NCBI GenBank assembly: GCA_934182465.1
Contig: CAKPRG010000001.1
Coordinates: 273,549 to 337,548 of the forward strand
Direction of reading: 5' to 3'
Length of the DNA stretch: 64,000 nt
Source: an uncultured Clostridia bacterium
Lineage (GTDB): Bacteria > Bacillota > Clostridia > TANB77 > CAG-508
The translations under genes were made by a program, and so were the position numbers. Each line of letters opens with the position of its first letter. The first letter of the stretch is position 1. Under the pieces are notes generated by a model. The model was not told the DNA's origin. It saw only the letters and a list, made by a program, of their open reading frames with translations, and did not search any database. Below are positions 10,741 to 59,956 of this stretch, piece by piece.

Positions 10741-10748
10741 ATAAGATG

Positions 10749-22418: not shown

Positions 22419-22518
22419 ATACGGTTAAAACAGTATTTGTAGTTAAATAGTTAAAACTATATAATACTTCAATATATAATAATTTAATAAATTTTTGCTA
22501 TAACACATATAAAATCAT

Positions 22519-36490: not shown

Positions 36491-39400
36491 ATGCATAGCA
36501 AAATGTTTAAAAGAATTTTGGCCGGAATTCTAATTTTTACATTAACATTTGCTAATCCAGCTTTGGTTACAAAGTCTTTTGCAACAAGTATTTTCGACAA
36601 AGTAAGTAATCAAACAGGAACAGGAAACAAAAACATTGAATTTAATGCAGGTTTTGATGCTGAAAATGCAGAAAGCTTTTCAGCTATTTCTGATGTAAAC
36701 AATGATAATTTAGCAATTAACTTAAATGTGAATGTAAAAAATAAGGGTTACTTAAAAAACGGAAAAGTTCAAATATTAGAAGGTACAGAAGGAGCTGGAC
36801 TTAATTTTGAACTAAAAAATCAAACAAAAGAAAGTGTTCAAAGTGAAGAAGTTTCAGAAGAAGCAAATGAGGCAGAACAAGTAACAGAAAATTTACCTGA
36901 TATGGTAGAAAAAATTGAAGATAATGTAGTTACTTTAAAACAAATTACTGCTGGTTCTGATATTTCAATTTCTTTACCAATTGAATACAAAAATGAAGAG
37001 TTTGTAAATTTAAGTAAATTAGTCGGTAATAGCAAAATATTATTTACAGGTGTTTATGTTGATGAAAAAGGAAATGAAATAGAAGTTGCAAAAGAAGTTG
37101 ATCTTACTCTTTCTTGGAAAGATGAAAGAACAGCAAAAATATCTTCAGAAATTGCAAAATATATTCCATATTCAACATCAAATGGAAATGGTATTATATT
37201 GCAAACTATTGTTGATTTAGATAATACTACTACAAATAAAACTTTACCAGTAAATAAAACAGAATTAAATATATCTGTTCCTACAATAGGAGATGCTAAG
37301 CCTAGTAAAATTACAGTAGTTGCAAATTCAACTATAGGTACAAATGGAAAAAATAATGAAAATGTTATTTTTACAGAAGATAATTGGACTTATGATCAAG
37401 AAACTGGAATTTTAAATATCAAAATGCAAAATGATAAACAATTAGTAAGAATAGACAATAGCAAAAATGATATATTAAAAAATGCAGAACAAGAAAATGT
37501 TGAAGAAGAAAGATATTATAGTTTGTCTGGAAAAGATGAATATGTTGTTACTTATTCATTTGAAAATGTAACAATGCAAGATGAATTAAAAACTTCTTAT
37601 AATATAAAAGGAAATTTAGAAACTTTTAGTGGTGTTGAAGCAGAAGGAAATATATATTCAAGTCAAACTGAGCAAAATTATGAATATACATTAACAGGAC
37701 AAAAAGGTGATATTGTTTCTTTACAAACTAACAATGAAACAGAAAGTATCTCAAAAGCATATACTTACTTAAATTATAATAATAAAGAAAACTATGAAAT
37801 TAAATACAATTCAAAAAATATAATAAACGTATCTTACAAAGATATTGTAGAAGAATTAAAAATAGAAGATAAAGATGTTTATTATATTGCAAAAGATGGA
37901 AATAAATATTTAACAAACGATATTAAATATAATAAAATTTCTATTTTAAAAGAAAATATTAATTCAATCTTAGGTGAAGATGGAGTTATTAAATTAGTAG
38001 ATTCAAACGGAAATGAAATTACTACTATTAATAAAGATACACAAGCAGATGAAAATGGAAATATTGTAATAGATTTATCAGAAAAAGGACTAACAAAAAT
38101 TACATTAATTACAAGTAAGCCAGTTCAAGAAGGAAACTTAATAGTAAATACAGAAAGAACTTCTAAAAAATCTGATTTTTCAAAAGAACAATACAAAAAC
38201 TTCTCTGCAATAGCTTTTGAAAATGAATTAAAAGCAAAATATACTTATGTATCAAGTGAAACATCTATAGCAACAAACACAATTCAAACAAATTTAAAAG
38301 ATACAAAAACAAAAGCTAACATTGTTTTAGATAGAGATAGCTTATCTACTATAGCAATGAACAATGATGTTGAAATAAGAGTAGAATTAAATAACAATAC
38401 TGATGAATCAGATGTTTATGGAGAATCAGTATTTGAAGTAGAAATGCCAGCATATATTCAAAATATGGAAATAACAAATACAAATATAGTATATGGTGAC
38501 GGATTAAACATTAAAAGTGTAGAGCCATACGAAAAAGATGGAAAAATATTTATTAGAATAACATTAGATGGTAAACAAGAATATCTAAACTCAGGTGTTT
38601 TAACAAATGGTTGTAACATAGTAATTAATGCAAACATAAAAGTTGATTTATTTACACCAGCAATGGAACAACAAGTAAAATTGACTTATACAAATAGTGA
38701 AGCAACAAATTATGAAAATGAACAAAGTAGTGGATTAGCAACAAGCAATATTTACTATTCTGCTCCAACAGGAGTAATTACAGTTAATACAACAAGTGAT
38801 TACAATGGTGCAGGAACAATGGTAACTTCTGTAAGACAAGGTTCAAAAGAAGATACAATTGAAATTTATTCAGGTGCTAAAACAGCTAATATGGAAGTTG
38901 TAGTTATGAACAACAATAAAAATACAATTTCTAATTTATCAATTTTAGGTAGAATACCTTTTAAAGGTGTAAAAGATATTCAAACAGGTGAAGACCTAGG
39001 AACAACAATAGATACAAAAATGGTAAGTGGATTAGTTGCAGATGCAAATAACAGAGGAAGCTTTGCAGTTTATTATTCTGCAAATCCAGAAGCAACTAAT
39101 GATTTATCAAATCAAGAAAATGGTTGGACACAAAATATAGAAGATTTATCAACAGTAAAATCATATTTAATAGTACCAACAGATGAAAATTATGAAATGG
39201 AACAAGCTGAAACATTAAGATTTACATATCAATACGAAATACCAGCTAATCTAGAACATAATGCAGATATATTTGGAACATTTTTAGCATACTATACAAA
39301 TCATACAGAAATTGCAACAGTTAAAGAAACATCAACAGCAGATAAAGTTGGTTTAACAACAGGTGAAGGACCACAAGTTGATATATCTTTAAAATCTGAT

Positions 39401-41665
39401 ACAAATTCAATAAAAGAATTTGAGGAATTGAAATTTACAACAACAGTAAAAAATACTGGAAAATCAGAAGCAAATAATATAGTTGTAAAAATGCCAATTC
39501 CAAGTTACACAAAATATATTACATCAAATTCAACAAAAGATAACACTACCGTAAATGTAGAAAATAATGTAGCAATATTTAATGTAAGTAGTTTAGCAGT
39601 AAACGAAAGTGTAGATTTAGAAATAGTAGTACAAGTTCTAGATACTCCAGAAGAACAAACACAGATTAAAGAAACATCAAGTATTACAGTTAAAGACTTA
39701 CAAAAAGAATTATCAACAAACGAAGTTACAATAGATTTAAAACAAGCTGAATTTTCAGTAAAAGTTTCAACTGTTGAAGATAATGCTGATGGAATGAAAA
39801 TTATTTATAGAGAAAATGATGAGTATTATTTTAAAGTACAATTAGAAAACTTAACATCAGAAGCTAAAAACAATGTAATATTAAAAACTCAATTACCTGA
39901 TTCATTTACATTTACAGAAGCTTATACAGTAGGATATGAAGCAGATGGTATAACAGAAAACAAAATAGACAATGCAGTATATGACGAACAAGCAAGAACA
40001 ATAACTTGGAAATTAGATAAAATAAGCGAATATGGTGCAAATCAATTTAATTTAATTGTAAAAGCAAATGAACTACCAGAAGGAACAACTCAAAAAGATG
40101 CTTCAGTAAAATTTGAAGCAACAGCAGATGGAACAGATACATATACATCAAATGAAGTTGTTTGCACAATAGCAAAACCAAGTTTGGTTGTATCACAAAA
40201 AACTTTAACAACAAATACATATGTAAAAGAAGGCGAAACTATCGAATATGTATTTAATGTAAAAAATGAAGGAATTGTTGCAGCTGAAAAATTAGTATTA
40301 AATGATCAAATCCCAGATGGATTAATCGTAAAAAATATTGATTATGTATCAAATGGAGTACATGCAACAAAAACAGTTTCTGAAAAAGATTCTGTAGAAA
40401 TAAATACAGTTATTATGCCAGGACAAGAACTAACAGTTAATGTAAAAGCATTAGCAGTAGACTTAAATGGTATGCAAGAAAAAACAGTAACAAATGCAGC
40501 TACAGTTTCAGCACAAAATGTAGATACAGTAAAAACAAATTCTATTACTCATATAGTTGAAGCAACAGATAAATCTGAACTATATGATACAGCTGGTGAA
40601 ACAGCAAATACAGCAACATCTCAATTACATTCATCAAACAGTAATTTATCAAAAACTTATAAGTTAACAGGTATTGCTTGGTTAGATGAAAACGGAAATG
40701 GTAAAAGAGATGATGATGAACCAAAAATGAGTAATATTACAGCAAGACTTGTAAATTCAGATACAGGTACAATTATAAAAACAGCTACTACAGATAGTAG
40801 AGGTGAATATAGCTTCTCAGGAATATCAAATGGAAACTATTTAGTAATATTTGATTATGATACAGTAAAATACACAGTAACAAGTTATAGACAAGCAGGA
40901 GTTGAAACAAATGTTAACTCAGATGCAATTACAACAAAAATAGAACAAGATGGAAAACAAAGAAATGGAGCTGTAACAGATGTTATTTCAATACAAGATT
41001 TAAGTGTATCTAATATAGATATAGGTTTTGTATTAGCAGATACATTTGATTTAAAATTAGATAAATCAGTAACAAAAATTACAGCACAAAACAAAGTTGG
41101 AACAAGTAAATCAGAATTTGATAAAACAAAACTTGCTAAGAAAGATATAGCAGGAAAATATATAGCAAGTACAACAGTTTACATCGAATACAACATTTCA
41201 GTTTCAAATGTTGGAGATGTAGCAGGATATGCTAAGAAAATAGTAGATTATATTCCAGAAGGAATGACATTTAATTCAAGCTTAAATAAAGACTGGTATA
41301 CAGGTACAGATGGAAATCTATACACATCAAGCTTAGCAGATGTAGAATTAAAACCAGGGGAAACAAAAGAATTAAAATTAGTTCTTACAAAACAAATGAC
41401 AGAAGAAAATACTGGTGTAGTAAATAACAATGCAGAAATTTATGAAGATTTCAATATTTATGGAATTTCAGATACAAATTCAACACCAGCAAATGGAGTT
41501 CAAAGTGAAAATGATATGAGCTCAGCAGATGCAATCTTAACAATTAAAACAGGTGAGAGCCTAATCTATGTATCAGTTATAATAACAAGTGCAATCTTAG
41601 GAGCAATAGTAATATTTATTTCATATAATAAGATTGTAGTTTCAAAAAGAAAGAGAGGTGTTTAA
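36491..41665 (+). CDS. Giant surface protein A2 (1724 aa), paralog of A1: DUF11-like repeats, SdrD-B-like domain, sorting-signal-like tail
   Basis: Collinear similarity to A1 across most of its length, for example YSAPTGVITVNT vs YQAPTGLIAVNT. GIAWLDENGNGKRDDDE. Tail LTIKTGE, hydrophobic segment, KRKRGV. Confidence 0.8.
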   Translation: MHSKMFKRILAGILIFTLTFANPALVTKSFATSIFDKVSNQTGTGNKNIEFNAGFDAENAESFSAISDVNNDNLAINLNVNVKNKGYLKNGKVQILEGTEGAGLNFELKNQTKESVQSEEVSEEANEAEQVTENLPDMVEKIEDNVVTLKQITAGSDISISLPIEYKNEEFVNLSKLVGNSKILFTGVYVDEKGNEIEVAKEVDLTLSWKDERTAKISSEIAKYIPYSTSNGNGIILQTIVDLDNTTTNKTLPVNKTELNISVPTIGDAKPSKITVVANSTIGTNGKNNENVIFTEDNWTYDQETGILNIKMQNDKQLVRIDNSKNDILKNAEQENVEEERYYSLSGKDEYVVTYSFENVTMQDELKTSYNIKGNLETFSGVEAEGNIYSSQTEQNYEYTLTGQKGDIVSLQTNNETESISKAYTYLNYNNKENYEIKYNSKNIINVSYKDIVEELKIEDKDVYYIAKDGNKYLTNDIKYNKISILKENINSILGEDGVIKLVDSNGNEITTINKDTQADENGNIVIDLSEKGLTKITLITSKPVQEGNLIVNTERTSKKSDFSKEQYKNFSAIAFENELKAKYTYVSSETSIATNTIQTNLKDTKTKANIVLDRDSLSTIAMNNDVEIRVELNNNTDESDVYGESVFEVEMPAYIQNMEITNTNIVYGDGLNIKSVEPYEKDGKIFIRITLDGKQEYLNSGVLTNGCNIVINANIKVDLFTPAMEQQVKLTYTNSEATNYENEQSSGLATSNIYYSAPTGVITVNTTSDYNGAGTMVTSVRQGSKEDTIEIYSGAKTANMEVVVMNNNKNTISNLSILGRIPFKGVKDIQTGEDLGTTIDTKMVSGLVADANNRGSFAVYYSANPEATNDLSNQENGWTQNIEDLSTVKSYLIVPTDENYEMEQAETLRFTYQYEIPANLEHNADIFGTFLAYYTNHTEIATVKETSTADKVGLTTGEGPQVDISLKSDTNSIKEFEELKFTTTVKNTGKSEANNIVVKMPIPSYTKYITSNSTKDNTTVNVENNVAIFNVSSLAVNESVDLEIVVQVLDTPEEQTQIKETSSITVKDLQKELSTNEVTIDLKQAEFSVKVSTVEDNADGMKIIYRENDEYYFKVQLENLTSEAKNNVILKTQLPDSFTFTEAYTVGYEADGITENKIDNAVYDEQARTITWKLDKISEYGANQFNLIVKANELPEGTTQKDASVKFEATADGTDTYTSNEVVCTIAKPSLVVSQKTLTTNTYVKEGETIEYVFNVKNEGIVAAEKLVLNDQIPDGLIVKNIDYVSNGVHATKTVSEKDSVEINTVIMPGQELTVNVKALAVDLNGMQEKTVTNAATVSAQNVDTVKTNSITHIVEATDKSELYDTAGETANTATSQLHSSNSNLSKTYKLTGIAWLDENGNGKRDDDEPKMSNITARLVNSDTGTIIKTATTDSRGEYSFSGISNGNYLVIFDYDTVKYTVTSYRQAGVETNVNSDAITTKIEQDGKQRNGAVTDVISIQDLSVSNIDIGFVLADTFDLKLDKSVTKITAQNKVGTSKSEFDKTKLAKKDIAGKYIASTTVYIEYNISVSNVGDVAGYAKKIVDYIPEGMTFNSSLNKDWYTGTDGNLYTSSLADVELKPGETKELKLVLTKQMTEENTGVVNNNAEIYEDFNIYGISDTNSTPANGVQSENDMSSADAILTIKTGESLIYVSVIITSAILGAIVIFISYNKIVVSKRKRGV

Positions 41666-41666: not shown

Positions 41667-44600
41667 ATGAAAAATAAAAAAAGTAGATTAGTTATATGTT
41701 TTATACTAACATGCATAATTGTATTAAGCACCATAATTGGTTTAGCAACTTATGTAAGTGCTAAAGTTGATACAAGTAAATCACAATCTTATTCACAAGG
41801 AAATGGAAATCCTGCACCAGGATATATTACAGTAAGTGATTTGTGGACAAGATATGACATATTATGTTGTGCACACGGAGTTCATTTACCAAGTGCAAAT
41901 CAAACTGTACTTAATTCAGAAAAAGGTAGTGTTACAGAAGCTTATTTAACACAAAACGATATTGGTAAAAAGAATTTTGAACATACTGTTGATTCAACAA
42001 GTAGTTCAGCAAATTCACCATTTAAGTCAGCATCATATACAAATGAGACTTTTGGATATTACAAAGTAAATAATACTTATGTAGCAAAACCAATGGAAGC
42101 ATATATCTTAGCTGAAATGGCAAAAGAACAAATAGTTAGAGGACATGATAGTAATGTTCAAATTGCTTGGTGGAACACAGAAGCTGGTATGAAAGGTGTA
42201 ACAGCTTCTGCTCCAGAAGCATTAACATTAGAAGCACAAGATTTTGAAGCATATATTAAAAAAATTGCAAAATCTACAGATCCAAGCACATATACAACTC
42301 AACAATATGAATTTGAAGTAGATGGAACAAAATATACTGGTCAAGTACAAGCACCAGAATTAAATTACGAACCAAAATATAACAAAGATGCAAACCAAGA
42401 TGGTAAAGAAGACAGATATGATAATATAACAGTTTCTTGGAATGGAGAAAAATATAAAATAGGTCCATTCTCTGTAAATTATGTTGAAAGCAAAGTAAAA
42501 CATGAAGGTAGAGATGAAGTAATGTTTGCAGGTATTACAGATGCTAAAATCTATACAGATTTAGGTGAAGTACCAGCAGACAAATGGAAATTTGTATGGC
42601 TAGAAGGACAAAGAGACGCAAACGATACACAAGAATATCCTCATACAAATGAAGTATTTTATATAGAAATGGATTTTATAGAAAATGCAAAATATTTCAA
42701 AAACTTACATTTCGATTTTAAATATATGAATGCTGGTGGACAATATGATGAACTAGCAGGAACATATTTTAAAGCAACATGGAAACCAATGTCAAAAGCA
42801 CAATATTGTGCAGGTGGATATACAGATAGTGATGGTGATGATCATCCATGTTCACATGGATTCATGAGCAGACATGTTAAATCTTGGACATATTGGTTAC
42901 AATTAACAAGCTTAACATCTGATGAATCACAATTATTAGCTTATGGTATTGTTGGTGCTAGATGGTACAATCCAGCACAATTAGATTTAGACAACAGTAC
43001 AGACTTACCAAAAGATCATAAAGGAAAAGTAGAAATCAAAAAAGTCGTAGTTGATGAAAATGGAAATGAGCTTACATCACTAGATGATTCAAAATTCACA
43101 TTTAAGCTTTATATAAATGATAAATTATACGATACAATTAGAGTAAAAGCTAACGAATCAGTTACAGAAACAATTAAATGGAAAGATGGAGAAGAAACTC
43201 CAACATATAGAATTGAAGAAGTAAATCTTCCAGATGAATATACAGTAAAAGAAATAGAAAATGCTTCTGGTACAATGGCAGAAGAAGCAACAGTTAAAAT
43301 AAAAGCTATTAACAAAGTTAAACCACATAAAGGATACTTAAAAATAGAGAAAAAAGTAACAGAAGTTGCAGAACAAGATGAAACATATAAATTTAATATT
43401 TATATAGATAGTGTTTTAAAAGATCAAATTGCAATAACAATTCCAGCAGGTCAAACAGGAAATAGTGTTACAGTAGGACCTTATGAATGGAATGGAAGTG
43501 ATGCTCCAGTATATAGAGTAGAAGAAACAGAAATTCCAGAAAATGTAACACAATTCAACATGATAAATGAAAAAGGAAAGTTAGTTGCAGGAGATGAAGC
43601 TACACCAGTTACAGTAACAGCAATAAATGATAATAGTGATAATAAAGATCATGAAGGAACAATAGAAATTACAAAACAAGTTACAGAATTAGCTAAAGAA
43701 GACGAAATATATAAATTTAATGTTTATATAAATGGTGAATTAAAAGACCAAGTACAAATTACTGTTCCAGCAGGTCAAACATCAAATACAGTAACAGTTG
43801 GACCATTCAAATGGAAAGGTGATAAAGCACCAAGCTATGAAGTAAAAGAAGTTGAAATTCCATCAGGTGTTAAACAAGTTAATATTGTTAACTCAACAGG
43901 AACTTTAATAGATGGAAAAAATGGACAAAAAGTTATTGTAACAGCTATAAATAATAATGGTGGAGATAAACCAGAAGAAAATGAAGCAAAATTAGTTATT
44001 ACTAAAAAGGTTGACGGAAATGCATCAACAGATAAACAATTTAAATTTAAAATTACTATTGATGGAACAGTTTATTATGCACAAATAACAAAAGATTCAA
44101 GTTGGTCACAAACAGTAAAATGGAAAGAAGGAGAACAAGCTCCAACTTATAGTGTAGAAGAAATTGATATTCCAGATGGATATGAAAAAGTAAGTATTAC
44201 AAATGCATCTGGAACATTAGAAGCTGATAAAGATGTATATGTAGAAGCTTTAAATAAAGGTGATGATAAAGAATATTCTGGAACAATTCGTGTTACTAAA
44301 AAAGTAGAAAATTCAACAGATACAAATAAGAAATTCAAATTTAAAATTACTATTGGAGATACAACTTATACAAAAGAATTAGCAAATGGTGAAAGTTGGA
44401 CTGAAAATGTAAAATGGATTGGAAAAGATAATGCACCTAAGTATAAAGTAGAAGAAGTTGAAGTACCAGATGGATATAGCATTGTAAGTGTAGAAAATGC
44501 CGAAGGTACAATGGAAGAAAATAAAACAGTTATAGTAAAGGCAATAAATAGAGACAATGATGATAAAGAACATCAAGGTCAAATAACAGTAAAAAAAGAA

Positions 44601-47600
44601 GTACAAATTGATGATAAAGTAAAAGATGAAGCAATAGATGGAACATTCGATTTTGAAGTTACTATAATGGGAACATTCGAAATGAATGGAGAGAGCGTTG
44701 TAAATGGAAGTAGAACAATAAAACAAAGTGTAAAAGCTGGTGGAAGTTTTACAACTCCAACAATAAAATGGAAAGGCAAAAATGCTCCAACATATAAAGT
44801 AACAGAAACAAATTTACCAGATGGTTGGAAATTAGTTGATATTACAAATGCTTCTGGATTAGTAGAAGATAATACAAATATTGAAGCAGTTTGTACAAAC
44901 GAATATAAAATAACAGTAGAATATGAATTAACAATGCAAATGGGTGGTATGGTATGGCATGATGTAGCATTAAACCCAGATGACAAAAATACAGAAAATT
45001 CAAAACCAAATGGAAAATATGATGCAGGTGTAGAAGAAGGAATTGAAAAAGCACAAGTTACAATAAAAAGATACTTATGTGATGACAATGGAAATGTAAT
45101 TTCATGTACAGGAAATGCTAAAGCTTGGGATAAAGATGGAAATGAAATTTCATGGCCAATTTATACAGACATAGATGGTACATGGGATGTAGCAAAAGTT
45201 GAAATAACAGTAGCTAAAAATGGAGAACAAGGAAGAGTAAGATATGGAGTTGAATTTGGATATGATGGACAAACTTATGAACCAACTACATTCTTAGTTA
45301 CAGGTAATGGAGATGCAAATAGCTACAAAAAAGCATCAAGAGTTGATAGAGGAAACTTCTTCTATGATTCAATGGCAATTGATAATGAAAATGATAGAAA
45401 AGAATTTAATGCAAAATTCACAAATATAACAGGTGATGAAGCAATTAACTCAAACGGAGAAACAACTGGATACAGTACAGATGCAAATGGAAATAAAACA
45501 GCAACATTAGATTATGTATCAACAGATTCATTAAATACAATGGGAACAACAAGAAAAGAATCAACATTAGTTACAACAACAGATGACCACTATATTAAAG
45601 ATGACTTCTTAATGAAAGCAGAAACAACAACAGGTGGATTAACATTCCCATTTGATACAGCAATTCACTTAGAGAGTATAGATAAGAAAATTAATGAATT
45701 AGGAGCAACACATATTTACAAATATTCAGCAACATATCCATACTTACTAAGTATAAACTTAGGATTAGTTACAAGAAAAGAAGCTGAACTTGCAACTACA
45801 AAAGATGTATATTCAGCAGCAGTAGTAATTAATCAAAAAATGTTAAATTATCAATATAATCAAGCAATTGATTTTGAAAATGTAAAATATCAAGACTACT
45901 TAAACTTACAAGTTGAAGTAGCAGATGCAGATATAGAATATACATTAGATTTATATAAAACAGATTACTATTACAGAGCTAAAATATATGAAGAAAATGC
46001 AGAAGTAGCTGGAGCATTAAAGAGATTTTATAAATCTTTAGGATATACAGCAGAAAACGCATTAGATTCAGAATTAGATCTAGATGTTTATGTAACATAT
46101 AAAGTAAGTGTATATAATGATTCACAAACATATTTTGCAACAGTAAATGAAATAACAGATTACTTTGATGAAGATTATGAATTAGTTGAAGTTGAAAAGA
46201 GCAGATATTTACAAGAAGCAAATGGTGTTGCAGTAAATCAAGTAACAAAAATTGCTGATAGTCCATACTATAAAGTTTTAAGACAACAAGTAAATGGAGA
46301 TAATGTAGCTTGGGAAACAACTAACGATAATCAAAACCCAGTAAAATGGGAAAATGCAGGAACAGTTAAAGGTTCAGATGGAGTTACTTATAATAAAATA
46401 AAAACAAGTTCTATAAAAGATGAAATATTAGCATCTGGTGAAAGAATTGATTTATACTTAACATTTAGAGTAAAAACAGATGAAACTTCAGCTGATGGAG
46501 TATTAAATTGTGTAAGATTAGGAAGTAAAGCAAATGTGGCTGAAATTTCAAATTACACAACATATAACTCAAATAATAAATCAGATATAGCAGGTAAAGT
46601 TGATAAAGATTCAGCTCCAAACAATGTTAATATCGAAGAATTTAATGAAAAAACATGGTATGAAGATGATACAGATTCAGCACCAGTAATCACATTATCT
46701 TTATATGACACATCAAGAGAAGTAAATGGTATTGCTTGGGAAGATAAAGAAGACACAAAAATAGACAATGGATATGGACAAATAGTAGGTAATGGAGTAT
46801 ATGATCCAGGCGAAGAATTAATAGCAAATTTAACTACAGAATTATGGGAGAAAGTTAGAGTTAAGAAAATTGACGATAGCGGAAATGAAGTTAAAGATGC
46901 AAATGGAAACTTAGTATATACAGAATATGATTTCTTATGGCCAGAAGATTATGAAATCCAAGCTGGTAAAACATTAAAAGAATTAACAGGATTTGATTCA
47001 ACAACTAAGACAGGTGTTGATCAAGGAAATAAAGGACAATATGGATTTACAGGAGTTCCAACAGGTAACTATGTAGTAAGATTTGTATATGGTGATAGTG
47101 ATGAAACTTCAGCACCAGCAAACTATGATAAAGATGGTATTCCAGCAGTTTACAATGGACAAGATTTCAAGACAGTAGCTTATGAAACTGGATTTAATGG
47201 AATAACAGATACAAACTCAGACGGATATGTAGATAATGAATGGCATAACTTAGAAAATGAAGATTTAGCAAATGCTAGAGTTTCAGATGCTAGAGATAGT
47301 GAAGCAAGAAGACTTGAAATTACATCAAAATCTAGAATTTTAACAAACTCAAATACAACAATTTTAAATACAGCAAATGATAGAAATGCAGACCATACAA
47401 AATTATATGAAGAATACTATATGACAGCAGATACAGCAAAAATCAATTTGAATATTGAAAATATGGTAAGCTTAAAGAAACAAAAAGTTAATGTTACAAA
47501 TCCAACAACAGGAGCAGTAGAAGAAATAGCAGCTGGTGAAGAAAAACAAGTTGGTGGAATTACAGTAAACTATGTAAAAGGTAAAGTAAACTTAGCAAAT

Positions 47601-48911
47601 GGTGGCAATACATCATTAGATAGATTAGACTTTACTTACAAAGTAAATAACATAGATGTTGGTCTTGAAGAAAGAGCAAGTACAGAAATTAAATTAGATA
47701 AACAAATTGAAAATATAACATTAACAGACAATACTGGAGCAGTTATTTTAAAAGCAGATTATGATTTAATCTATACTCCAAAATTTGATGAAAAAACAGG
47801 AAAAACATCTATAAAAGTAGATGCAAAATTAAATCCTGAAACATCAATTGGAACAGATAATTTACAAGCATTAAATAGAGATGAAGCAGCAGGATTACAA
47901 AACTTTAGATATATTTACTACGATAACTCAATTGCTCAATCATTAACATTAAATGTAACTTATAGATTTACAGCATTAAACTTAGGTGAAGTTGATAGAA
48001 TTGGATTATTAGGAAATAGTAAATTTGATGAACCACAAACTATATTAGAAGAAGTTAAGAAATTATCTGAATCTGATTATTCATACAATACAAGAGAAAA
48101 GACATTTAGTAAAACTGCAAATGCAGATGGAAAAGTTTATGCAGATTCATTTGGTAAATATTTAGGAAGTATTTACTATGAAGGCTCTTATGCAAAAGCA
48201 GAATTAGATGATATAGTAACAACAAGAATAGATACTTTAATCGATTATGTTGATAATAATGCAATCTTTAAGGCAGAAGAAAATAATGGATTAAATAATA
48301 GTTGGAGAGTAATTACAGTTGATGAGTTAGCAGCAGATGATTCTGATATAATAGACAAAAATATAATTACAACTTATGAAGATGGAACAAAGAATATAGA
48401 AGATTCAAAAGGTGCAACTTATGAAACAGCTGAAAGATATAATATCATCTTAAGTATAGAAAATAACGATAGTTCTGCAACAGAAATGTCAAATAAAGAC
48501 TTCAATGTAAAATTAATTCCATATAGTGCTACAAAAGCATTTGATGTAAATAGTGATTTAGATTACAACTATACAACAGCAATGAAGATGAATATGACTA
48601 GATCAATTGATGCAGAAGTTAATGATGAAGACTTATCATTTGATAATATGGCAGAAATAGTTAAATTAGACAATACAGCAGGTAGAAGAGATGTTACAAC
48701 AATTGCAGGTAATGCAAACCCTAAAGAAGGTGAATTTGCAACATCATTAAAAGAGAGAGACGCAAGTGCAACAGAATTAATTACATTCTCTCCACCAACT
48801 GGTATGAATGCAAAAACAATTTTAGCAATCCAAATTGCATTAGTTACAATTTTAGGATTAGGAATTGTATCAGCTGGTATAATTGTTATTAAGAAAAAAG
48901 TTCTTAAATAA
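41667..48911 (+). CDS. Giant surface protein B2 (2414 aa), paralog of B1: N-terminal Cys...Gln module, about five tandem Cna-B/E-box-like domains, SdrD-B-like domains, SPPTG sorting signal
   Basis: ATG 41667 lies 2 nt after the A2 stop, with RBS AGAGAGGTG. Repeats carry YxVEExxxPxGY. C-terminal FSPPTG, hydrophobic segment, KKKVLK. Confidence 0.8.
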   Translation: MKNKKSRLVICFILTCIIVLSTIIGLATYVSAKVDTSKSQSYSQGNGNPAPGYITVSDLWTRYDILCCAHGVHLPSANQTVLNSEKGSVTEAYLTQNDIGKKNFEHTVDSTSSSANSPFKSASYTNETFGYYKVNNTYVAKPMEAYILAEMAKEQIVRGHDSNVQIAWWNTEAGMKGVTASAPEALTLEAQDFEAYIKKIAKSTDPSTYTTQQYEFEVDGTKYTGQVQAPELNYEPKYNKDANQDGKEDRYDNITVSWNGEKYKIGPFSVNYVESKVKHEGRDEVMFAGITDAKIYTDLGEVPADKWKFVWLEGQRDANDTQEYPHTNEVFYIEMDFIENAKYFKNLHFDFKYMNAGGQYDELAGTYFKATWKPMSKAQYCAGGYTDSDGDDHPCSHGFMSRHVKSWTYWLQLTSLTSDESQLLAYGIVGARWYNPAQLDLDNSTDLPKDHKGKVEIKKVVVDENGNELTSLDDSKFTFKLYINDKLYDTIRVKANESVTETIKWKDGEETPTYRIEEVNLPDEYTVKEIENASGTMAEEATVKIKAINKVKPHKGYLKIEKKVTEVAEQDETYKFNIYIDSVLKDQIAITIPAGQTGNSVTVGPYEWNGSDAPVYRVEETEIPENVTQFNMINEKGKLVAGDEATPVTVTAINDNSDNKDHEGTIEITKQVTELAKEDEIYKFNVYINGELKDQVQITVPAGQTSNTVTVGPFKWKGDKAPSYEVKEVEIPSGVKQVNIVNSTGTLIDGKNGQKVIVTAINNNGGDKPEENEAKLVITKKVDGNASTDKQFKFKITIDGTVYYAQITKDSSWSQTVKWKEGEQAPTYSVEEIDIPDGYEKVSITNASGTLEADKDVYVEALNKGDDKEYSGTIRVTKKVENSTDTNKKFKFKITIGDTTYTKELANGESWTENVKWIGKDNAPKYKVEEVEVPDGYSIVSVENAEGTMEENKTVIVKAINRDNDDKEHQGQITVKKEVQIDDKVKDEAIDGTFDFEVTIMGTFEMNGESVVNGSRTIKQSVKAGGSFTTPTIKWKGKNAPTYKVTETNLPDGWKLVDITNASGLVEDNTNIEAVCTNEYKITVEYELTMQMGGMVWHDVALNPDDKNTENSKPNGKYDAGVEEGIEKAQVTIKRYLCDDNGNVISCTGNAKAWDKDGNEISWPIYTDIDGTWDVAKVEITVAKNGEQGRVRYGVEFGYDGQTYEPTTFLVTGNGDANSYKKASRVDRGNFFYDSMAIDNENDRKEFNAKFTNITGDEAINSNGETTGYSTDANGNKTATLDYVSTDSLNTMGTTRKESTLVTTTDDHYIKDDFLMKAETTTGGLTFPFDTAIHLESIDKKINELGATHIYKYSATYPYLLSINLGLVTRKEAELATTKDVYSAAVVINQKMLNYQYNQAIDFENVKYQDYLNLQVEVADADIEYTLDLYKTDYYYRAKIYEENAEVAGALKRFYKSLGYTAENALDSELDLDVYVTYKVSVYNDSQTYFATVNEITDYFDEDYELVEVEKSRYLQEANGVAVNQVTKIADSPYYKVLRQQVNGDNVAWETTNDNQNPVKWENAGTVKGSDGVTYNKIKTSSIKDEILASGERIDLYLTFRVKTDETSADGVLNCVRLGSKANVAEISNYTTYNSNNKSDIAGKVDKDSAPNNVNIEEFNEKTWYEDDTDSAPVITLSLYDTSREVNGIAWEDKEDTKIDNGYGQIVGNGVYDPGEELIANLTTELWEKVRVKKIDDSGNEVKDANGNLVYTEYDFLWPEDYEIQAGKTLKELTGFDSTTKTGVDQGNKGQYGFTGVPTGNYVVRFVYGDSDETSAPANYDKDGIPAVYNGQDFKTVAYETGFNGITDTNSDGYVDNEWHNLENEDLANARVSDARDSEARRLEITSKSRILTNSNTTILNTANDRNADHTKLYEEYYMTADTAKINLNIENMVSLKKQKVNVTNPTTGAVEEIAAGEEKQVGGITVNYVKGKVNLANGGNTSLDRLDFTYKVNNIDVGLEERASTEIKLDKQIENITLTDNTGAVILKADYDLIYTPKFDEKTGKTSIKVDAKLNPETSIGTDNLQALNRDEAAGLQNFRYIYYDNSIAQSLTLNVTYRFTALNLGEVDRIGLLGNSKFDEPQTILEEVKKLSESDYSYNTREKTFSKTANADGKVYADSFGKYLGSIYYEGSYAKAELDDIVTTRIDTLIDYVDNNAIFKAEENNGLNNSWRVITVDELAADDSDIIDKNIITTYEDGTKNIEDSKGATYETAERYNIILSIENNDSSATEMSNKDFNVKLIPYSATKAFDVNSDLDYNYTTAMKMNMTRSIDAEVNDEDLSFDNMAEIVKLDNTAGRRDVTTIAGNANPKEGEFATSLKERDASATELITFSPPTGMNAKTILAIQIALVTILGLGIVSAGIIVIKKKVLK

Positions 48912-48926
48912 ACAATAAAATAATAA

Positions 48927-48958
48927 AAAAATGGAAGTGTAAAAGCTTCCATTTTTTT
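48927..48958 (+). terminator. Rho-independent terminator after B2
   Basis: atggaag...cttccat stem followed by T7. Confidence 0.7.
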
Positions 48959-56197: not shown

Positions 56198-59100
56198 ATG
56201 AATAAAAAAATGTTAATCTCAATAGCATTAATTTTCGTTATGTTATTGAACTATGTCGTACCTTTTTCATTAGCATATGATGAAGCAACAAGCGATATAG
56301 AAATTACATTTAATGGCAATTTGTATGCAGCAATTAAAAAGAATTTAGTTGATGCAGGTATAGATGCTTCAGAATATAATGATGCACAACGTACTATGAA
56401 AATTAGCCAATCTGCTATAGATAGTGTAACAAGTTTCAACTTATCTAATAGTGGTATATCTGATTTAACAGGATTAGATACATTTAAGAATGTAACTTCT
56501 TTAGACTTGTCAGCTAATGAATTAGATTCAGACAGCAATCTAGAAGTATTAAATTCATTAAATTTAAAATTTCTAGATTTATCATCTAACAAACTTTCAG
56601 ATGTTAGTATGATAACAAACATTTCTACAATTCAAACATTAAACTTACATAACCAAAAGTTTAATATAATTCAAATTGTAGAAATTGATGAAGAAACTGA
56701 ATCAGACCAATTAGTAGAAGCAACATACGATTTACCTCAAATTTTAAGCTATGGTGGTTTATTAAAACCAGAATGGTTACCAGAAACAAAATATCAAAAT
56801 GGTTCAAATCCAGCACCATATGTTAATTGGACAAAATTTGATGGTAAAAAAATTACAATAACAACTGGTTCAAAATCAGAATCAAATTATACACCATATT
56901 ATGGAATGACAAAAGTAGGAGTAGAAGTAACTGATTCTACAAATACATTATACAATTCAAAAATTAATTTATACTATATAACAGTAAGTTCTGATGAAAG
57001 AGGAATTATCTTTAAAGATGAAAATCTTTATAAAGCTGTTAAAGAACAATTAACAAAAGCTCAAACTGTAAATACAGATTTAAGCAAATATACTGATAAA
57101 GGAAATTTATATGCAAGAGCATATGATGAACCATTAGTATTAGTTGTTAGTATAAACGATTTAATTAACAAAATTCCAAGTTTAAAATTAGTAGACAGAA
57201 AAATTAAAGATCTAACAGGATTAGAAATGTTTGTTGGACTTGAAAAAGAATTAAACTTAGAAGGAAACTATATTGAAGATATAGAAAAAATAATTGAACT
57301 AAAGAGAAAGAAACTTGAAGAACAAGAAAAATTAAGAGCTAAAGTTCAAAAACAAATAGCATATATTAAAGAAAGTGTAGATGCTATTGAAGAAGCAAAG
57401 AAAAATGTGGAAAGTGAAACTAAAAAAGTTACTACATTAGTAACAGAAGAGCAAACTTTAAAAACAGAAATTTCAAAATTAGAAGATGAAATTAATACTT
57501 TAAATGCAGAAACAACAACATTAAATAATAATTTACCAACATACAAAACAACATTAGAAAATGCAAAAGATAATTTAGCACAAAAACAAAATGAATTAAC
57601 ATTATTAAATAATGAGTTGGTAACATTAAATAATAATTTATCAAAAGCATCAACAACTGATGAAAAAGACAAAATAAAAGCTCAAATTGAAGCTAAAAAA
57701 GCAGAAAAAGAAGCAAAACAAATTGAAGTTGATCAAGCAAAAGATGCTGTAACAACAGCAGAAAAACAAGTAACTGATACAGAAGCAAAAATAAAATCAA
57801 ACACAGAAGCAGTTACATCAAAAACAAAAGACTTAAATAGTAAAAAAACAGATTTATCTAAAAAATCAAATTCTATTAGTGAATCTTACCAAGTAATTGC
57901 TAACAACAATAATACAGCTGATTTACATAGAGAATATTTAAAAGCAAAATTAGCAAGATTATATGAAATATATAAAAAATCTTATAAATTAGCTAGACTT
58001 GCAACAGTACAATTAAGTACATTAACAGATGAAGAATTTGAAAATTTAACTTATGAAAATGCAAAAAGTATTTTTGAAGCACAAACATCAAGATTAGCTG
58101 ATATAGAAAATAATTTAGCAGCTTATGAATCTTCATATGTTATTAAAGAATTTAATATACCAACACTATCAAATGTAACAGTAAATGGTGATACAGAAGG
58201 AACATCATCAACAAAAACAGTTGCAATTGAAAATCCAATAGCTACATATTTTAAAGAATATGCAAAAAATCATGAAGATTGGAAATTATCTGACATAAAA
58301 GGATTCTTATTAAAAGTAAGATATATGTCAACAGTATTAGAAATGATGAATTATTGTACAATTGAAAGATTATACAATGGAACAACAACATGTTATGCAG
58401 AAGAATACTTAAATAGTGAAATTGCAACAAAAACATGGAATGGTGAAAGTACAAGTGATTTAACAAAAATTAAATCAAATTTAAATACAATTAAATCAAC
58501 TTTTGCAGACACATATGGACATCAATGTACAGGAGCTGTATCTTATGATGGAAATAATGATATTTACGCATTAGCTAAAAAATATAGTACAGCAACTTCA
58601 GAAGAAATAAATGCTTATGTAACAATACCAATGTTAAAAGTTTTAAATGTTAGAAGAAATCTAATTGAATCAATTGATGGAATTGAAGAATTAGATGAAT
58701 TACAAGAATTATATGCAGGAAATAATGAACTTGTAAATATTGAAAGTGTTGACTGGACAAAAATGGTAAATTTAAAGAAATTAGATTTATCATATAACAG
58801 TATAAGCGAAATTAAATGCTTAGAAGTTTTAGCAAAATTAGAAGAATTAGATTTATCTAAAAACTTAATTGCAGGTGCATTTAACTTTACTATCTCTGGA
58901 ATGCCAAAATTGAAAAAATTAAATATGTCATACAATGCAATTAATGATATTGAATATTTAAGAACACAATTAACATTCGTAGCAAGAGGTGAAGGATTTG
59001 ATGATATAGCATCATACTTAAATGCAGGAAAATTTGATGTAAGATTTTACGGTCAAATATTATCAATGAACTTAGATTTAGTTCAAATGGGTAGAGCTAC

Positions 59101-59956
59101 ATATGTTGATTTACCTATGATATTTAGACAAGCTGAAGAATTAGATAATGTTAGAACATCATTTGGTATAAACAGTATTTTTGGAAATGTTACAAATGAT
59201 GGTAAACAAGCATTATTAGATACAAGTAAAATTGGAGAACAAACAGCTCAAGTATCTATAGTAGATACAAATGCTTTAAATCCTGGAATTTGTAGTGGTA
59301 CATTCTGTACAATTAAATATACAGTTACAGAAAAACCAGTAATTCCAGATGATAACAATAACACAGTAGACAACAATGTAACAAACAACACAATTGATAA
59401 TGATATTACAAATAACACAGTAAATAATGATACAACAAATAATACAGTAAATAATGATATAACAAACAATACTGTGGATAATAATGTAACAAATAACACA
59501 GTAGATAACAATGTTACAAATAATACAGTTGATCCAAGCACTTTAGGATATACTGTAAAAGGTGAAAGCGTAATAGGGGTTTCACCAAAAACAACAGTTA
59601 AAAACTTTAGTACAAAATTAACAGAAGACTTCAAAGTAGTAGTTGTAGTTGAAAATGATGATGGAACTACAACAGTAGTTGATAATTATGTAGGAACAGG
59701 AATGATTGCTGTACTATATAATTCAGAAGACAAACCTGTTGCTGCATATGAAATTGTAGTAAAAGGTGATGTAAATGGTGATGGACTTGCAAATGCATTA
59801 GACTCTAATTTAATAAAAGCTTATAGAGCTGAAATAACAGACTTGTCAGGTGCATATAAAGAAGCAGCAGATATTAACCAAGATGGAAAAGTAGATGCGA
59901 TAGATTCAAGATTGTTGTTATATCATAGAGCAGAAATAAGTGGATACATACTATAA
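56198..59956 (+). CDS. Secreted LRR (internalin-like) and long coiled-coil protein with a C-terminal type-I dockerin domain
   Basis: Signal peptide. LRR units LDLSANEL/LDLSSNKLSDVS. About 200-aa heptad coiled coil. Second LRR block. NNTVDNNVT repeats. Dockerin duplicated loops DVNGDGLANALD...AYRAEI and DINQDGKVDAIDSRLLLYHRAEI. Confidence 0.8.
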   Translation: MNKKMLISIALIFVMLLNYVVPFSLAYDEATSDIEITFNGNLYAAIKKNLVDAGIDASEYNDAQRTMKISQSAIDSVTSFNLSNSGISDLTGLDTFKNVTSLDLSANELDSDSNLEVLNSLNLKFLDLSSNKLSDVSMITNISTIQTLNLHNQKFNIIQIVEIDEETESDQLVEATYDLPQILSYGGLLKPEWLPETKYQNGSNPAPYVNWTKFDGKKITITTGSKSESNYTPYYGMTKVGVEVTDSTNTLYNSKINLYYITVSSDERGIIFKDENLYKAVKEQLTKAQTVNTDLSKYTDKGNLYARAYDEPLVLVVSINDLINKIPSLKLVDRKIKDLTGLEMFVGLEKELNLEGNYIEDIEKIIELKRKKLEEQEKLRAKVQKQIAYIKESVDAIEEAKKNVESETKKVTTLVTEEQTLKTEISKLEDEINTLNAETTTLNNNLPTYKTTLENAKDNLAQKQNELTLLNNELVTLNNNLSKASTTDEKDKIKAQIEAKKAEKEAKQIEVDQAKDAVTTAEKQVTDTEAKIKSNTEAVTSKTKDLNSKKTDLSKKSNSISESYQVIANNNNTADLHREYLKAKLARLYEIYKKSYKLARLATVQLSTLTDEEFENLTYENAKSIFEAQTSRLADIENNLAAYESSYVIKEFNIPTLSNVTVNGDTEGTSSTKTVAIENPIATYFKEYAKNHEDWKLSDIKGFLLKVRYMSTVLEMMNYCTIERLYNGTTTCYAEEYLNSEIATKTWNGESTSDLTKIKSNLNTIKSTFADTYGHQCTGAVSYDGNNDIYALAKKYSTATSEEINAYVTIPMLKVLNVRRNLIESIDGIEELDELQELYAGNNELVNIESVDWTKMVNLKKLDLSYNSISEIKCLEVLAKLEELDLSKNLIAGAFNFTISGMPKLKKLNMSYNAINDIEYLRTQLTFVARGEGFDDIASYLNAGKFDVRFYGQILSMNLDLVQMGRATYVDLPMIFRQAEELDNVRTSFGINSIFGNVTNDGKQALLDTSKIGEQTAQVSIVDTNALNPGICSGTFCTIKYTVTEKPVIPDDNNNTVDNNVTNNTIDNDITNNTVNNDTTNNTVNNDITNNTVDNNVTNNTVDNNVTNNTVDPSTLGYTVKGESVIGVSPKTTVKNFSTKLTEDFKVVVVVENDDGTTTVVDNYVGTGMIAVLYNSEDKPVAAYEIVVKGDVNGDGLANALDSNLIKAYRAEITDLSGAYKEAADINQDGKVDAIDSRLLLYHRAEISGYIL
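59354..59533 (+). repeat. Imperfect 27-bp tandem repeat (about 6.7 copies) encoding NNTVDNNVT units
   Basis: Read directly in the nucleotide sequence and the translation. Confidence 0.8.

What the first reader, a model, noticed from the sequence alone, without database searches (positions are those of the whole stretch)
48770..48911. Non-canonical sorting signals (SPPTG, SVATG, IKTGE, LPAAG) on five surface proteins, but no sortase gene in 64 kb
B1 and B2 end in SPPTG, a hydrophobic helix and a K/R tail. A1 and A2 end in SVATGN and TIKTGE with the same tripartite tail. The cohesin protein ends in LPAAG. SPPTG fits the (S/P)PXTG motif known for the class-B-like sortase of Clostridioides difficile, which also accepts NVQTG-type variants. 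No ORF in the window has a sortase TLxTC signature, so anchoring would depend on a distant housekeeping sortase.
Basis: partly seen in the sequence, partly recalled or inferred. Interest (0 to 1): 0.55.

Follow-up and report, generated by a model that had tools for sequence, protein, structure and literature searches.

The report
Sortase-like tails on paired giant surface proteins
Two neighbouring pairs of giant secreted proteins from an uncultured gut Clostridia bacterium end in a conserved "…TG, membrane helix, basic tail" module that looks like a variant cell-wall sorting signal, but no sortase gene lies nearby and several features fit a plain membrane anchor almost as well.

Summary
The tails are real. 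A1 ends in SVATG, B1 and B2 in SPPTG, and A2 in TIKTG. Each motif is followed by a hydrophobic helix and a Lys/Arg tail. LPAAG is also present, but on a 353-aa ORF (60123-61184). That ORF is not the LRR+dockerin protein, and its cohesin identity is unproven.

No sortase-like ORF occurs in the window, in its ±10 kb flanks, or in about 40 related loci. The whole genome could not be searched.

The four large genes are two diverged copies of an obligate A-B pair found only in uncultured gut Clostridia (relatives of Ca. Scatovivens, TANB77/CAG-508). The B family has 803 cluster representatives and no Pfam or PDB match. About 94% of its tails keep PPTG. The A family keeps [ST][VI][KRS]TG.

PPTG matches known class-B sortase motifs: C. 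difficile (S/P)PxTG and S. pyogenes Cpa VPPTG. A folds like sortase-anchored pilins. B carries a thioester-domain-like Cys…QxAxW signature.

Four observations argue against a sortase signal:
- One B clade keeps PPTG but has no membrane helix.
- A few members replace the Thr.
- In A, the motif sits in a confidently predicted β-strand.
- LPXTG models do not match the tails.

Best reading: sorting signals for a distant sortase (about 0.5). Main rival: permanent membrane anchors (about 0.3).

The parts
22984..28731 (+). A1 gene, 1915 aa: signal peptide, DUF11-type repeats, poly-Asn linker, SdrD_B/CnaB domain, final Ig-like domain and tail.
   Evidence: ORF. Pfam SdrD_B E=2.6e-16. This exact protein is in public collections, unnamed. 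28.6% identical to A2 over about 1700 aa.
28576..28728 (+). A1 tail: predicted β-strand SVQNTAISVA + TG (SVATG at 28597-28611), hydrophobic helix 28624-28686, basic tail KIKIPKINGKKFYK 28687-28728.
   Evidence: AlphaFold2 model with pLDDT 91.7: strand at residues 271-281 directly before T282-G283, helix from residue 285.
28744..36117 (+). B1 gene, 2457 aa. Starts 13 nt after the A1 stop. N-terminal Cys105 (29056-29058) and LQHAVW (29365-29382).
   Evidence: Only weak SdrD_B similarity in Pfam. No PDB relative.
35917..36114 (+). B1 tail: EKDTSATEVITLSPPTG (SPPTG at 35953-35967), 17-aa spacer LERYHNIILNTVQENSK, hydrophobic helix 36019-36087, KKYKNRPIK.
   Evidence: This tail class (spacer + ..R[PR]IK) recurs in relatives.
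36491..41665 (+). A2 gene, 1724 aa: DUF11 repeats, SdrD_B, final Ig-like domain and tail.
   Evidence: Pfam DUF11 E=1.4e-15 and SdrD_B E=3.3e-15. TIGR01451 repeat.
41504..41662 (+). A2 tail: SENDMSSADAILTIKTG (TIKTG at 41540-41554), hydrophobic helix 41558-41626, NKIVVSKRKRGV.
   Evidence: Family logo E-[ND]-D-x-[SG]-x-A-D-x-[IV]-[ILV]-[TS]-[VI]-[KSR]-T-G.
41667..48911 (+). B2 gene, 2414 aa. The start region overlaps or abuts the A2 stop. N-terminal Cys67 (41865-41867) and QIAWW (42159-42173).
   Evidence: No Pfam family at all. No PDB relative. N-terminal motifs.
48753..48908 (+). B2 tail (the flagged feature): ERDASATELITFSPPTG (SPPTG at 48789-48803), MNAK, hydrophobic helix 48816-48890, KKKVLK 48891-48908.
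   Evidence: The segment is invariant in homologues that are 31-82% identical and conserved across 803 cluster representatives.
48925..48958 (.). Terminator-like hairpin closing the A2-B2 unit.
   Evidence: 1 found against 0.0 expected in shuffles.
60123..61184 (+). 353-aa secreted protein ending LPAAG (61083-61097), ARR, hydrophobic stretch 61107-61154 and NKYMKYKGI. Cohesin identity is possible but unproven.
   Evidence: No Pfam hit. Weak PDB cohesin match at E=0.03.
56198..59956 (+). LRR protein with a C-terminal type I dockerin. It is the neighbour of the LPAAG protein and has no sorting-signal-like tail.
   Evidence: Pfam LRR_4 E=3.9e-24 and Dockerin_1 E=3.1e-11. C-terminus shown.

Best explanation
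A1-B1 and A2-B2 are two anciently duplicated copies of an obligate pair of giant secreted surface proteins. A is a stalk protein like a pilin or MSCRAMM (staphylococcal-type surface adhesin), built of DUF11 and CnaB-type Ig-like domains. B is an uncharacterised protein of about 2400 aa whose N-terminal domain has a thioester-domain-like Cys…QxAxW signature.

Each protein ends in a module of 60-70 aa: a short acidic β-strand (E-x-D…[DE]-x-[IV]), then x-x-x-T-G, then a membrane-spanning helix, then a Lys/Arg tail.

The most likely mechanism runs as follows. The proteins are exported through Sec using their N-terminal signal peptides (read from the sequence). They are held in the membrane by the C-terminal helix and basic tail (inferred). 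They are then cut between T and G by a sortase encoded elsewhere in the genome and joined to peptidoglycan, or possibly B is joined to A (inferred by analogy, not shown).

The B motif [ST]PPTG is of the class-B-sortase type, as in C. difficile SrtB (S/P)PxTG and S. pyogenes Spy0129 (V/P)PTG. The A motif [ST][VI][KRS]TG has no characterised counterpart. The LPAAG tail on ORF 60123-61184 is a third, LPXTG-like signal on an unrelated protein.
For: (1) All four proteins have a signal peptide plus motif + hydrophobic helix + basic tail.
(2) Motif conservation far exceeds that of the ectodomains. B1 and B2 are 25.6% identical overall, yet share SATE[VL]IT[LF]SPPTG. About 94% of about 172 true B tails have PPTG, and 77 of 80 A tails have TG just before the helix.
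(3) The motif matches experimentally defined class-B sortase sites: (S/P)PXTG cut between T and G (PMC4155245), and Spy0129 accepting EVPTG and Cpa VPPTG, consensus (E/Q/V)(V/P)PTG (PMC3019223).
(4) One A1-type orthologue (P0048 / L049) has canonical LPSTG at the position where A1 has SVATG.
(5) The A C-terminal model (pLDDT 91.7) resembles sortase-anchored SdrD B domains and the pilins SpaD, BcpA and SpaA.
(6) In the B N-terminal domain the only invariant residues are one Cys and Q-x-A-x-W about 100 aa later. This resembles thioester-domain signatures, and such domains are 'almost always' at the N-terminus of proteins with C-terminal LPXTG anchors (PMC4450167).
(7) In the one clade where B has lost its helix and tail, the A partner has TQG instead of TG. 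This is what a joint loss of sortase processing would look like.
(8) A separate LPAAG + helix + basic tail in the same window hints that the organism uses sortase-type signals.
Against: No sortase-like ORF is present in the 64-kb window, in the ±10 kb beyond it, or in 37 + 5 related loci. Dedicated class-B and pilus sortases are usually linked to their substrates.

None of the five tails hits Pfam PF00746 or any NCBIfam sorting-signal model, even at E<=10. A control LPMTG tail scores 23.8 bits.

Nine of 150 B representatives end 3-7 residues after PPTG, with no helix or tail. In that clade DDTDATExITISPPTGL is the best-conserved segment (77% identity against 58% over the last 340 aa). One such gene is followed by a TAA stop and a terminator-like hairpin, with no helix in any frame.

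The Thr at the scissile position is replaced by F, Q, S, N or Y in about 7 tails, while the Pro at -2 and the Gly were retained in every tail I judged correctly anchored.

In A, the residues just before TG are a confidently predicted β-strand and the helix starts two residues after G. The 17 residues upstream of the motif are similar between A and B (z=3.7). The motif is therefore part of a larger folded module, not a free linker.

B1's motif lies 49 residues from the C-terminus, outside the 17-45 window used for C. difficile substrates.
Confidence: 0.5

Rival explanations
1. The tails are permanent C-terminal membrane anchors and are not cleaved. The E-x-D…TG segment is the last β-strand and turn of the membrane-proximal domain, and PPxG / TG is a structural junction. 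A and B sit side by side in the membrane as a heteromeric giant adhesin, held by their helices and short conserved cytoplasmic tails.
For: PPTG and its upstream strand are kept, and are the most conserved segment, in a diversified B clade that has no helix or tail.

The Thr is replaceable (PPFG, PPQG, PPNG, PPSG, QPYG), whereas the Pro at -2 and the Gly were retained in every tail I judged correctly anchored.

In A, the strand is predicted at pLDDT about 95 right up to TG and the helix begins two residues later.

A and B tails share an upstream pattern.

The extreme C-termini are conserved and differ by pair type: KRKGGV with IKKKVLK; KKFYK with K[NR]R[PR]IK; [KR][KR][FI]Y[KR] on both partners in distant pairs.

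The A and B genes are always adjacent, and no third conserved gene and no sortase is nearby. No LPXTG model matches.
Against: A T-G dipeptide placed exactly before a helix plus basic tail in a Firmicute, with Pro at -3 in B, is the form of a sortase site. One orthologue has LPSTG. Folds like A, and thioester-type adhesins, are typically sortase-anchored. Conserved tail sequences also occur in true sorting signals, for example streptococcal M proteins (my own knowledge), so that argument is weak.
Confidence: 0.3
2. Sortase-built two-protein fibre. B, a tip adhesin with a thioester-like domain, is cut at PPT|G and joined to a lysine of A. A is cut at xKT|G and joined to the wall. This would be a minimal analogue of the S. 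pyogenes Cpa (VPPTG) / backbone pilin (EVPTG) system run by a class-B sortase.
For: The two partners carry two different motifs, and the B motif shares PPTG with Cpa. The genes are strictly adjacent and their start and stop regions nearly overlap, which suggests co-production. A has a pilin-like fold. B has a thioester-like signature.
Against: No sortase and no SipA-like gene lies in or near any locus, unlike the S. pyogenes pilus locus, where Spy0129 is the pilus-specific sortase. The A motif lacks the Pro found in (E/Q/V)(V/P)PTG. No acceptor-lysine motif was identified. The B clade without a helix cannot be a sortase substrate. The thioester-domain assignment failed both HMM tests.
Confidence: 0.1
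3. The 60-70-aa tail is a sorting signal for an unknown, non-sortase processing enzyme, acting in the way exosortase or rhombosortase systems do.
For: The conserved module is longer than a classical sorting signal and is shared by two otherwise unrelated families. The extreme C-terminal motifs are conserved. No known C-terminal sorting-domain model matches.
Against: No conserved candidate enzyme gene accompanies the pairs in 37 loci. Nothing in the sequence requires a new enzyme.
Confidence: 0.07

Closest known systems
C. difficile SrtB substrates with (S/P)PXTG sorting signals
   Same: Both are in low-GC Clostridia. Both have a tripartite tail. SPPTG in B1 and B2 fits (S/P)PXTG. SrtB acts as an unlinked housekeeping enzyme on diverse substrates, and cleavage between T and G has been shown for that motif.
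   Different: Family-wide, the B motif is mostly TPPTG. The -2 position is fixed as Pro here but is K, S or Q in C. difficile. The motif here directly abuts a conserved folded strand. B1's motif lies outside the 17-45-residue window. No SrtB homologue could be looked for in this genome.
S. pyogenes pilus proteins Cpa (VPPTG) and Spy0128 (EVPTG), processed by the class-B sortase Spy0129
   Same: The PPTG core is identical to Cpa's. In both systems two partner proteins carry two different motifs. In both, a thioester-type (here thioester-like) adhesin is paired with a protein built of pilin-fold domains.
   Different: Here no sortase or chaperone gene is in the locus. The proteins are 5-10 times larger. 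The A motif has no Pro. Thioester-domain membership is not confirmed.
Classical LPXTG cell-wall anchors (Pfam PF00746 / TIGR01167)
   Same: Signal peptide, a pentapeptide ending in TG, a hydrophobic stretch and a basic tail. One orthologue has LPSTG. The LPAAG protein is a near-canonical variant.
   Different: The HMMs do not match any of the window tails, while a control tail does. Leu-Pro is absent from the A and B motifs.
Giant C-terminally membrane-anchored Gram-positive surface proteins such as S. aureus Ebh (from my own knowledge)
   Same: Very large multi-domain secreted proteins held by a C-terminal transmembrane helix with a basic cytoplasmic end and no sortase step.
   Different: No sequence relationship was tested. 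Ebh is not known to have a conserved xxTG junction or an obligate partner gene.

Membership tests
LPXTG-type cell-wall sorting signal (sortase substrate) | N-terminal secretion signal | tested here: met
   All five proteins start with a basic stretch followed by a hydrophobic one. This was read from the translations; no dedicated predictor was run.
LPXTG-type cell-wall sorting signal (sortase substrate) | LPXTG pentapeptide | tested here: not met
   The motifs are SVATG, SPPTG, TIKTG and SPPTG. Only the LPAAG ORF is close, with Ala in place of Thr.
LPXTG-type cell-wall sorting signal (sortase substrate) | Hydrophobic segment followed by a positively charged tail at the C-terminus | tested here: met
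   Hydrophobic stretches of 16-25 aa are followed by tails of 6-14 aa with 3-6 Lys/Arg.
LPXTG-type cell-wall sorting signal (sortase substrate) | Match to curated anchor models (PF00746, TIGR01167 and other NCBIfam C-terminal sorting domains) | tested here: not met
   No hit at E<=10 for any window tail or for the LPSTG tail of P0048. The control tail of P0059 (LPMTG) scores 23.8 bits against a cutoff of 20.
LPXTG-type cell-wall sorting signal (sortase substrate) | A sortase encoded in the same genome | not testable with these tools
   None in the window, the ±10 kb flanks, or 42 related loci. The rest of the genome could not be read.
LPXTG-type cell-wall sorting signal (sortase substrate) | Cleavage after Thr and amide linkage to peptidoglycan | not testable with these tools
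   This needs biochemistry or proteomics.
C. difficile-type class-B sortase substrates, (S/P)PXTG | The (S/P)PXTG motif | tested here: met
   B1 and B2 have SPPTG. Family-wide, of 183 regex-anchored tails, only 32 are SPPTG and 107 are TPPTG. A1 and A2 do not fit.
C. difficile-type class-B sortase substrates, (S/P)PXTG | Motif 17-45 residues from the C-terminus (criterion of Donahue et al. 2014) | tested here: inconclusive
   B2 has 35 residues after the motif, which meets the criterion. B1 has 49, which does not.
S. pyogenes Spy0129-type pilus substrates, (E/Q/V)(V/P)PTG | The (V/P)PTG core | tested here: met
   B has PPTG. A ([VI][KRS]TG) lacks the Pro at -2.
S. pyogenes Spy0129-type pilus substrates, (E/Q/V)(V/P)PTG | Sortase and chaperone genes in the same locus as the substrates | tested here: not met
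   No sortase-like ORF and no third conserved gene in 37 loci.
CnaB / SdrD_B and DUF11 Ig-like stalk domains (A proteins) | Pfam match above the curated cutoff, and the fold | tested here: met
   SdrD_B scores 60.3 and 56.7 bits (cutoff 29.7). DUF11 scores 58.1 bits in A2. The model matches SdrD, SpaD and BcpA at Foldseek E=1e-8 to 1e-7.
Thioester domain (TED) adhesins (B proteins) | A [YFL]C-Φ-ζ Cys motif and a TQxA(I/V)W-type motif in an N-terminal domain | tested here: inconclusive
   The Cys and Q-x-A-x-W are the only invariant residues in 14 diverse members. The motif occurs in at least 62 of 106 N-termini and in 0 of 106 control regions. B1's FCYQ and LQHAVW fit well; B2's LCCA and VQIAWW fit partly.
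Thioester domain (TED) adhesins (B proteins) | Match to TED profile or to solved TED structures | tested here: not met
   0 of 14 members hit any Pfam TED model at E<=1. The profile finds no PDB chain at E<=10.
Cohesin-dockerin pair | Dockerin on one partner and cohesin on the other | tested here: inconclusive
   Dockerin_1 E=3.1e-11 on 56198-59956. For the LPAAG ORF there is no Pfam cohesin hit and only an E=0.03, out-of-register PDB match.

The most novel reading that the evidence does not exclude
The shared tail of 60-70 aa (acidic strand, xxTG, helix, K/R-Φ-Φ-K end) is not a sortase signal. It is a previously undescribed membrane-proximal anchoring and pairing module. Through it, two unrelated giant proteins, A and B, form an obligate heteromeric surface adhesin in TANB77-type gut Clostridia. 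PPTG is then a structural element, which is why it survives in the clade whose B proteins have no membrane helix.
Probability: 0.25. Interest if true: 0.6.

Novelty: new variant of a known kind. Interest (0 to 1): 0.45.

Why it matters
TANB77/CAG-508 Clostridia are common in human and animal guts but uncultured, and nothing is known about their cell surface. These paired genes account for about 26 kb of this 64-kb window. They are conserved across the lineage and are unnamed in public databases. They are therefore the obvious candidates for how these bacteria attach to mucus, fibre or other cells.

If the tails are sortase signals, they add a well-populated set of motifs ([ST]PPTG and [ST][VI]KTG) to the short list of non-LPXTG signals. 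They would also predict a class-B-like housekeeping sortase in this order.

If they are not, the near-invariant PPTG junction and the partner-specific tails define a new way of mounting giant adhesins on a Gram-positive membrane.

In either case, the B family (803 clusters at 50% identity, with no Pfam or PDB match) merits a domain definition.

Tried and rejected
- Word-indexed homologue searches for B gave only 3 and 6 hits. The exhaustive profile search was needed to see the family.
- AlphaFold2 on the B2 C-terminus with 9 sequences failed (pLDDT 35.5). The structural context of PPTG in B is therefore unknown.
- Sequence and profile searches of B against the PDB found nothing.
- NCBIfam and Pfam scans of the isolated tails found no known C-terminal sorting domain.
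- I tried to reach the rest of the genome. Contig look-ups accept only window proteins, so only ±10 kb could be added. The single genome-collection scan went on B relatives, which gave organism names and neighbourhoods but no whole genomes.
- Literature searches for SPPTG, TPPTG, LPAAG and TANB77+sortase returned nothing relevant.
- The logos were anchored on the motif itself, so their '100%' values for P(-2), T and G are by construction. I replaced them with counts not anchored on the motif residues themselves. For B the anchor still required the final Gly.
- I rejected the idea that conserved helix and tail sequences argue strongly against cleavage, because true sorting signals can also be highly conserved within a family.
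- I rejected contig truncation or a recoded stop codon as explanations for the helix-less B clade. All nine members stop 3-7 residues after G. One is followed by a TAA stop and a hairpin. ORFs of 2000-2900 aa without internal stops exclude recoding.
Full report
**1. What is in the sequence**

The window has 26% G+C. Between minC (21121-21735) and spoIIE (49190-51601) lie four very large genes on the + strand:
- A1, 22984-28731
- B1, 28744-36117
- A2, 36491-41665
- B2, 41667-48911

A1 and A2 are paralogues, 28.6% identical over about 1700 aa. B1 and B2 are paralogues, 25.6% identical over their C-terminal ~1300 aa. B1 starts 13 nt after the A1 stop, and the B2 start region abuts or overlaps the A2 stop. 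A terminator-like hairpin follows B2.

All four proteins begin with signal-peptide-like sequences. The flagged span 48770-48911 is the B2 tail.

**2. Corrections to the observation**

LPAAG is not on the large LRR protein at 56198-59956. That protein ends in a type I dockerin. LPAAG is on the next ORF (60123-61184, 353 aa), which ends LPAAG-ARR, 16 hydrophobic residues and NKYMKYKGI. This ORF has no Pfam hit. Its only similarity to cohesins is an E=0.03 match that is out of register. 'Cohesin' is therefore plausible, given the dockerin neighbour, but unproven.

A loose TLxTC-type search of all six frames found no sortase candidate.

That study found (S/P)PXTG peptides were cleaved between T and G, but NVQTG was not (PMC4155245).

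**3. Where it comes from**

Exact copies of the window proteins occur on many human-gut metagenome contigs (Hadza and others, up to 435-753 kb). They carry no informative name.

Relatives of B in the one-genome-per-species collection are all uncultured Clostridia MAGs from human, mouse, rabbit, ruminant and chicken guts, including several 'Candidatus Scatovivens'. A recent survey places that genus in GTDB order TANB77, family CAG-508 (PMC13106387).

**4. The families**

A is recognisable. It has DUF11/TIGR01451 repeats and an SdrD_B (CnaB-type) domain. An AlphaFold2 model of its last 322 residues, built with 45 homologues, has pLDDT 91.7. The model resembles SdrD B domains and the pilins SpaD, BcpA and SpaA.

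B has essentially no annotation. B2 has no Pfam family, B1 has only sub-threshold SdrD_B similarity, and neither has a PDB relative.

An exhaustive profile search with the B C-terminus found 803 cluster representatives (E<=1e-3), of which 202 had E<=1e-30. Most are 2000-4300 aa long.

In 37 related genomic loci an A gene always sits directly upstream of a B gene. Close relatives have the same A1-B1-A2-B2-spoIIE order. No third gene is conserved with them.

**5. The tails across the families**

B tails read E-x-D-[TSA]-S-A-T-E-x-[IV]-T-[FL]-[TS]-P-P-T-G. I then counted the four residues at positions -3 to 0 using an anchor on the upstream strand rather than on the Pro or Thr residues of the motif. 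The anchor still required the final Gly. It placed 183 tails. I judged eight of these 4-mers (one tail each) to be mis-anchored, which leaves about 172 true tails:
- 162 have PPTG.
- The Pro at -2 and the Gly were retained in every tail I judged correctly anchored.
- Thr is replaced in about seven: PPFG three times, and PPQG, PPSG, PPNG and QPYG once each.
- The -4 residue is T in 107, S in 32, I in 8 and A in 7.

A tails read E-[ND]-D-x-[SG]-x-A-D-x-[IV]-[ILV]-[TS]-[VI]-[KSR]-T-G. In a count anchored on the helix, 77 of 80 have TG just before it. Two of the three misses are windowing artefacts and one is a real TQG. One A1-type orthologue has canonical LPSTG where A1 has SVATG.

The 17 residues upstream of the motif are similar between A and B at a one-residue offset. 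The score is 8.2 against -9.5±4.8 for column shuffles (z=3.7, 0.1% of shuffles).

The extreme C-termini fall into classes that go with the pair type:
- A ..KRKGGV with B ..IKKKVLK
- A ..KKFYK with B ..K[NR]R[PR]IK
- [KR][KR][FI]Y[KR] on both partners in distant pairs

**6. Evidence for a sortase signal**

- The tails have the right form: a T-G dipeptide immediately before a helix and a basic tail, on secreted proteins of a Firmicute.
- The B motif coincides with two experimentally defined class-B sortase motifs. These are (S/P)PXTG of C. difficile SrtB and the (E/Q/V)(V/P)PTG consensus of S. pyogenes Spy0129, which processes Cpa's VPPTG.
- A has the fold of classical sortase-anchored stalk proteins.
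- In an alignment of 14 diverse B N-termini, the only invariant residues are one Cys and Q-x-A-x-W about 100 residues later.
- That motif occurs in at least 62 of 106 full-length N-termini and in none of 106 control regions.
- These match the [YFL]CΦζ and TQxA(I/V)W signatures of thioester adhesin domains. Such domains are described as almost always N-terminal in proteins with stalk repeats and a C-terminal LPXTG anchor (PMC4450167). This is a motif-level lead only: no Pfam thioester-domain model and no PDB chain is matched.

**7. Evidence against a sortase signal**

- No sortase-like ORF is in the window, its ±10 kb flanks, or any of 42 related loci. In all, about 985 kb of fetched loci plus the 64-kb window were scanned.
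- The curated LPXTG-anchor models do not match any tail, although a control tail does.
- Nine of the 150 listed B representatives end 3-7 residues after PPTG, with no helix or tail.
- In that clade the C-terminal DDTDATExITISPPTGL is the most conserved part: 77% identity against 58% over the last 340 aa.
- A metagenome contig from the clade shows TAA directly after …PPTGLTK, then a terminator-like hairpin, with no helix in any frame. PPTG is therefore under selection where it cannot be part of a complete sorting signal.
- In the two loci recovered from that clade, the A partners have TQG instead of TG. This fits a joint loss of sortase processing, so the clade's evidence cuts both ways.
- In the A model, the ten residues before TG form a β-strand (pLDDT about 95) and the helix starts two residues after G. 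The motif is part of a folded, membrane-proximal module.
- B1-type tails have a 17-aa spacer or longer before the helix.

**8. Verdict**

| Reading | Estimate |
|---|---|
| Variant sorting signals for an unlinked, probably class-B-like, sortase | about 0.5 |
| — of which a Cpa/pilin-like covalent B-to-A coupling | about 0.1 |
| Permanent membrane anchors with a structural PPxG/TG junction | about 0.3 |
| An unknown processing system | under 0.1 |

The decisive test is a sortase census of the MAGs that carry these genes. I could not run it.

Independent of that question, the A-B pair is a lineage-wide, unannotated family of giant surface proteins that would repay structural and proteomic work.

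Noticed in passing
window 41865-41867 and 42159-42173 (B2); 29056-29058 and 29365-29382 (B1): In the N-terminal domain of the B family the only invariant residues are one Cys and Q-x-A-x-W about 100 aa later. This resembles thioester-domain signatures ([YFL]CΦζ and TQxA(I/V)W). No Pfam or PDB match supports it.
   Followed up: partly
L052 (OFHM01000117.1) 7052-11101 and L053 1794-9395: One clade of B proteins ends …ISPPTGLTK, then a stop and a hairpin, with no membrane helix. Their A partners have TQG instead of TG but keep a helix and a KKVYK end.
   Followed up: partly
window 56198-59956 and 60123-61184: A 1252-aa LRR protein with a type I dockerin sits next to a small secreted Cys-rich protein with an LPAAG tail. 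This could be a wall-anchored cohesin-dockerin pair of the Ruminococcus ScaE type, but the cohesin is not demonstrated.
   Followed up: partly
window 22984-48911 and loci L012-L048: The A1-B1-A2-B2 block lies between minC and spoIIE in this genome and directly upstream of spoIIE in its closer relatives. A more distant relative (L049) has a single pair between ftsH and nrdD. The two pair types have distinct, co-inherited C-terminal ends.
   Followed up: partly
window ~27590-27760 (A1): A long poly-Asn/Ser low-complexity linker precedes the SdrD_B domain of A1. The equivalent region in a relative (L049) carries an apparent frameshift in an A-rich run that splits the gene call.
   Followed up: no
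window 21736-22977: minC is followed by 1.2 kb that holds only small reverse-strand ORFs, including a 148-aa Asn-rich protein (21972-22418) with a weak DUF7339 hit, rather than an ORF of minD size. The usual minCDE order is from my own knowledge.
   Followed up: no
window 53304-54563: A 419-aa protein with no Pfam match and a C-terminal hydrophobic end is conserved downstream of spoIIE and a WG-repeat protein in 8 related loci.
   Followed up: no
B family C-terminal domain, e.g. window ~48240-48260 (DYVDNN) and 48753-48780: The invariant residues of the last B domain are mostly Asp, Asn and Glu (DYVDND, N…, E-x-D, E), with no invariant Lys, Gln or His. This points to a Ca2+-stabilised domain rather than an isopeptide- or ester-bonded one. 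That is inference only.
   Followed up: no
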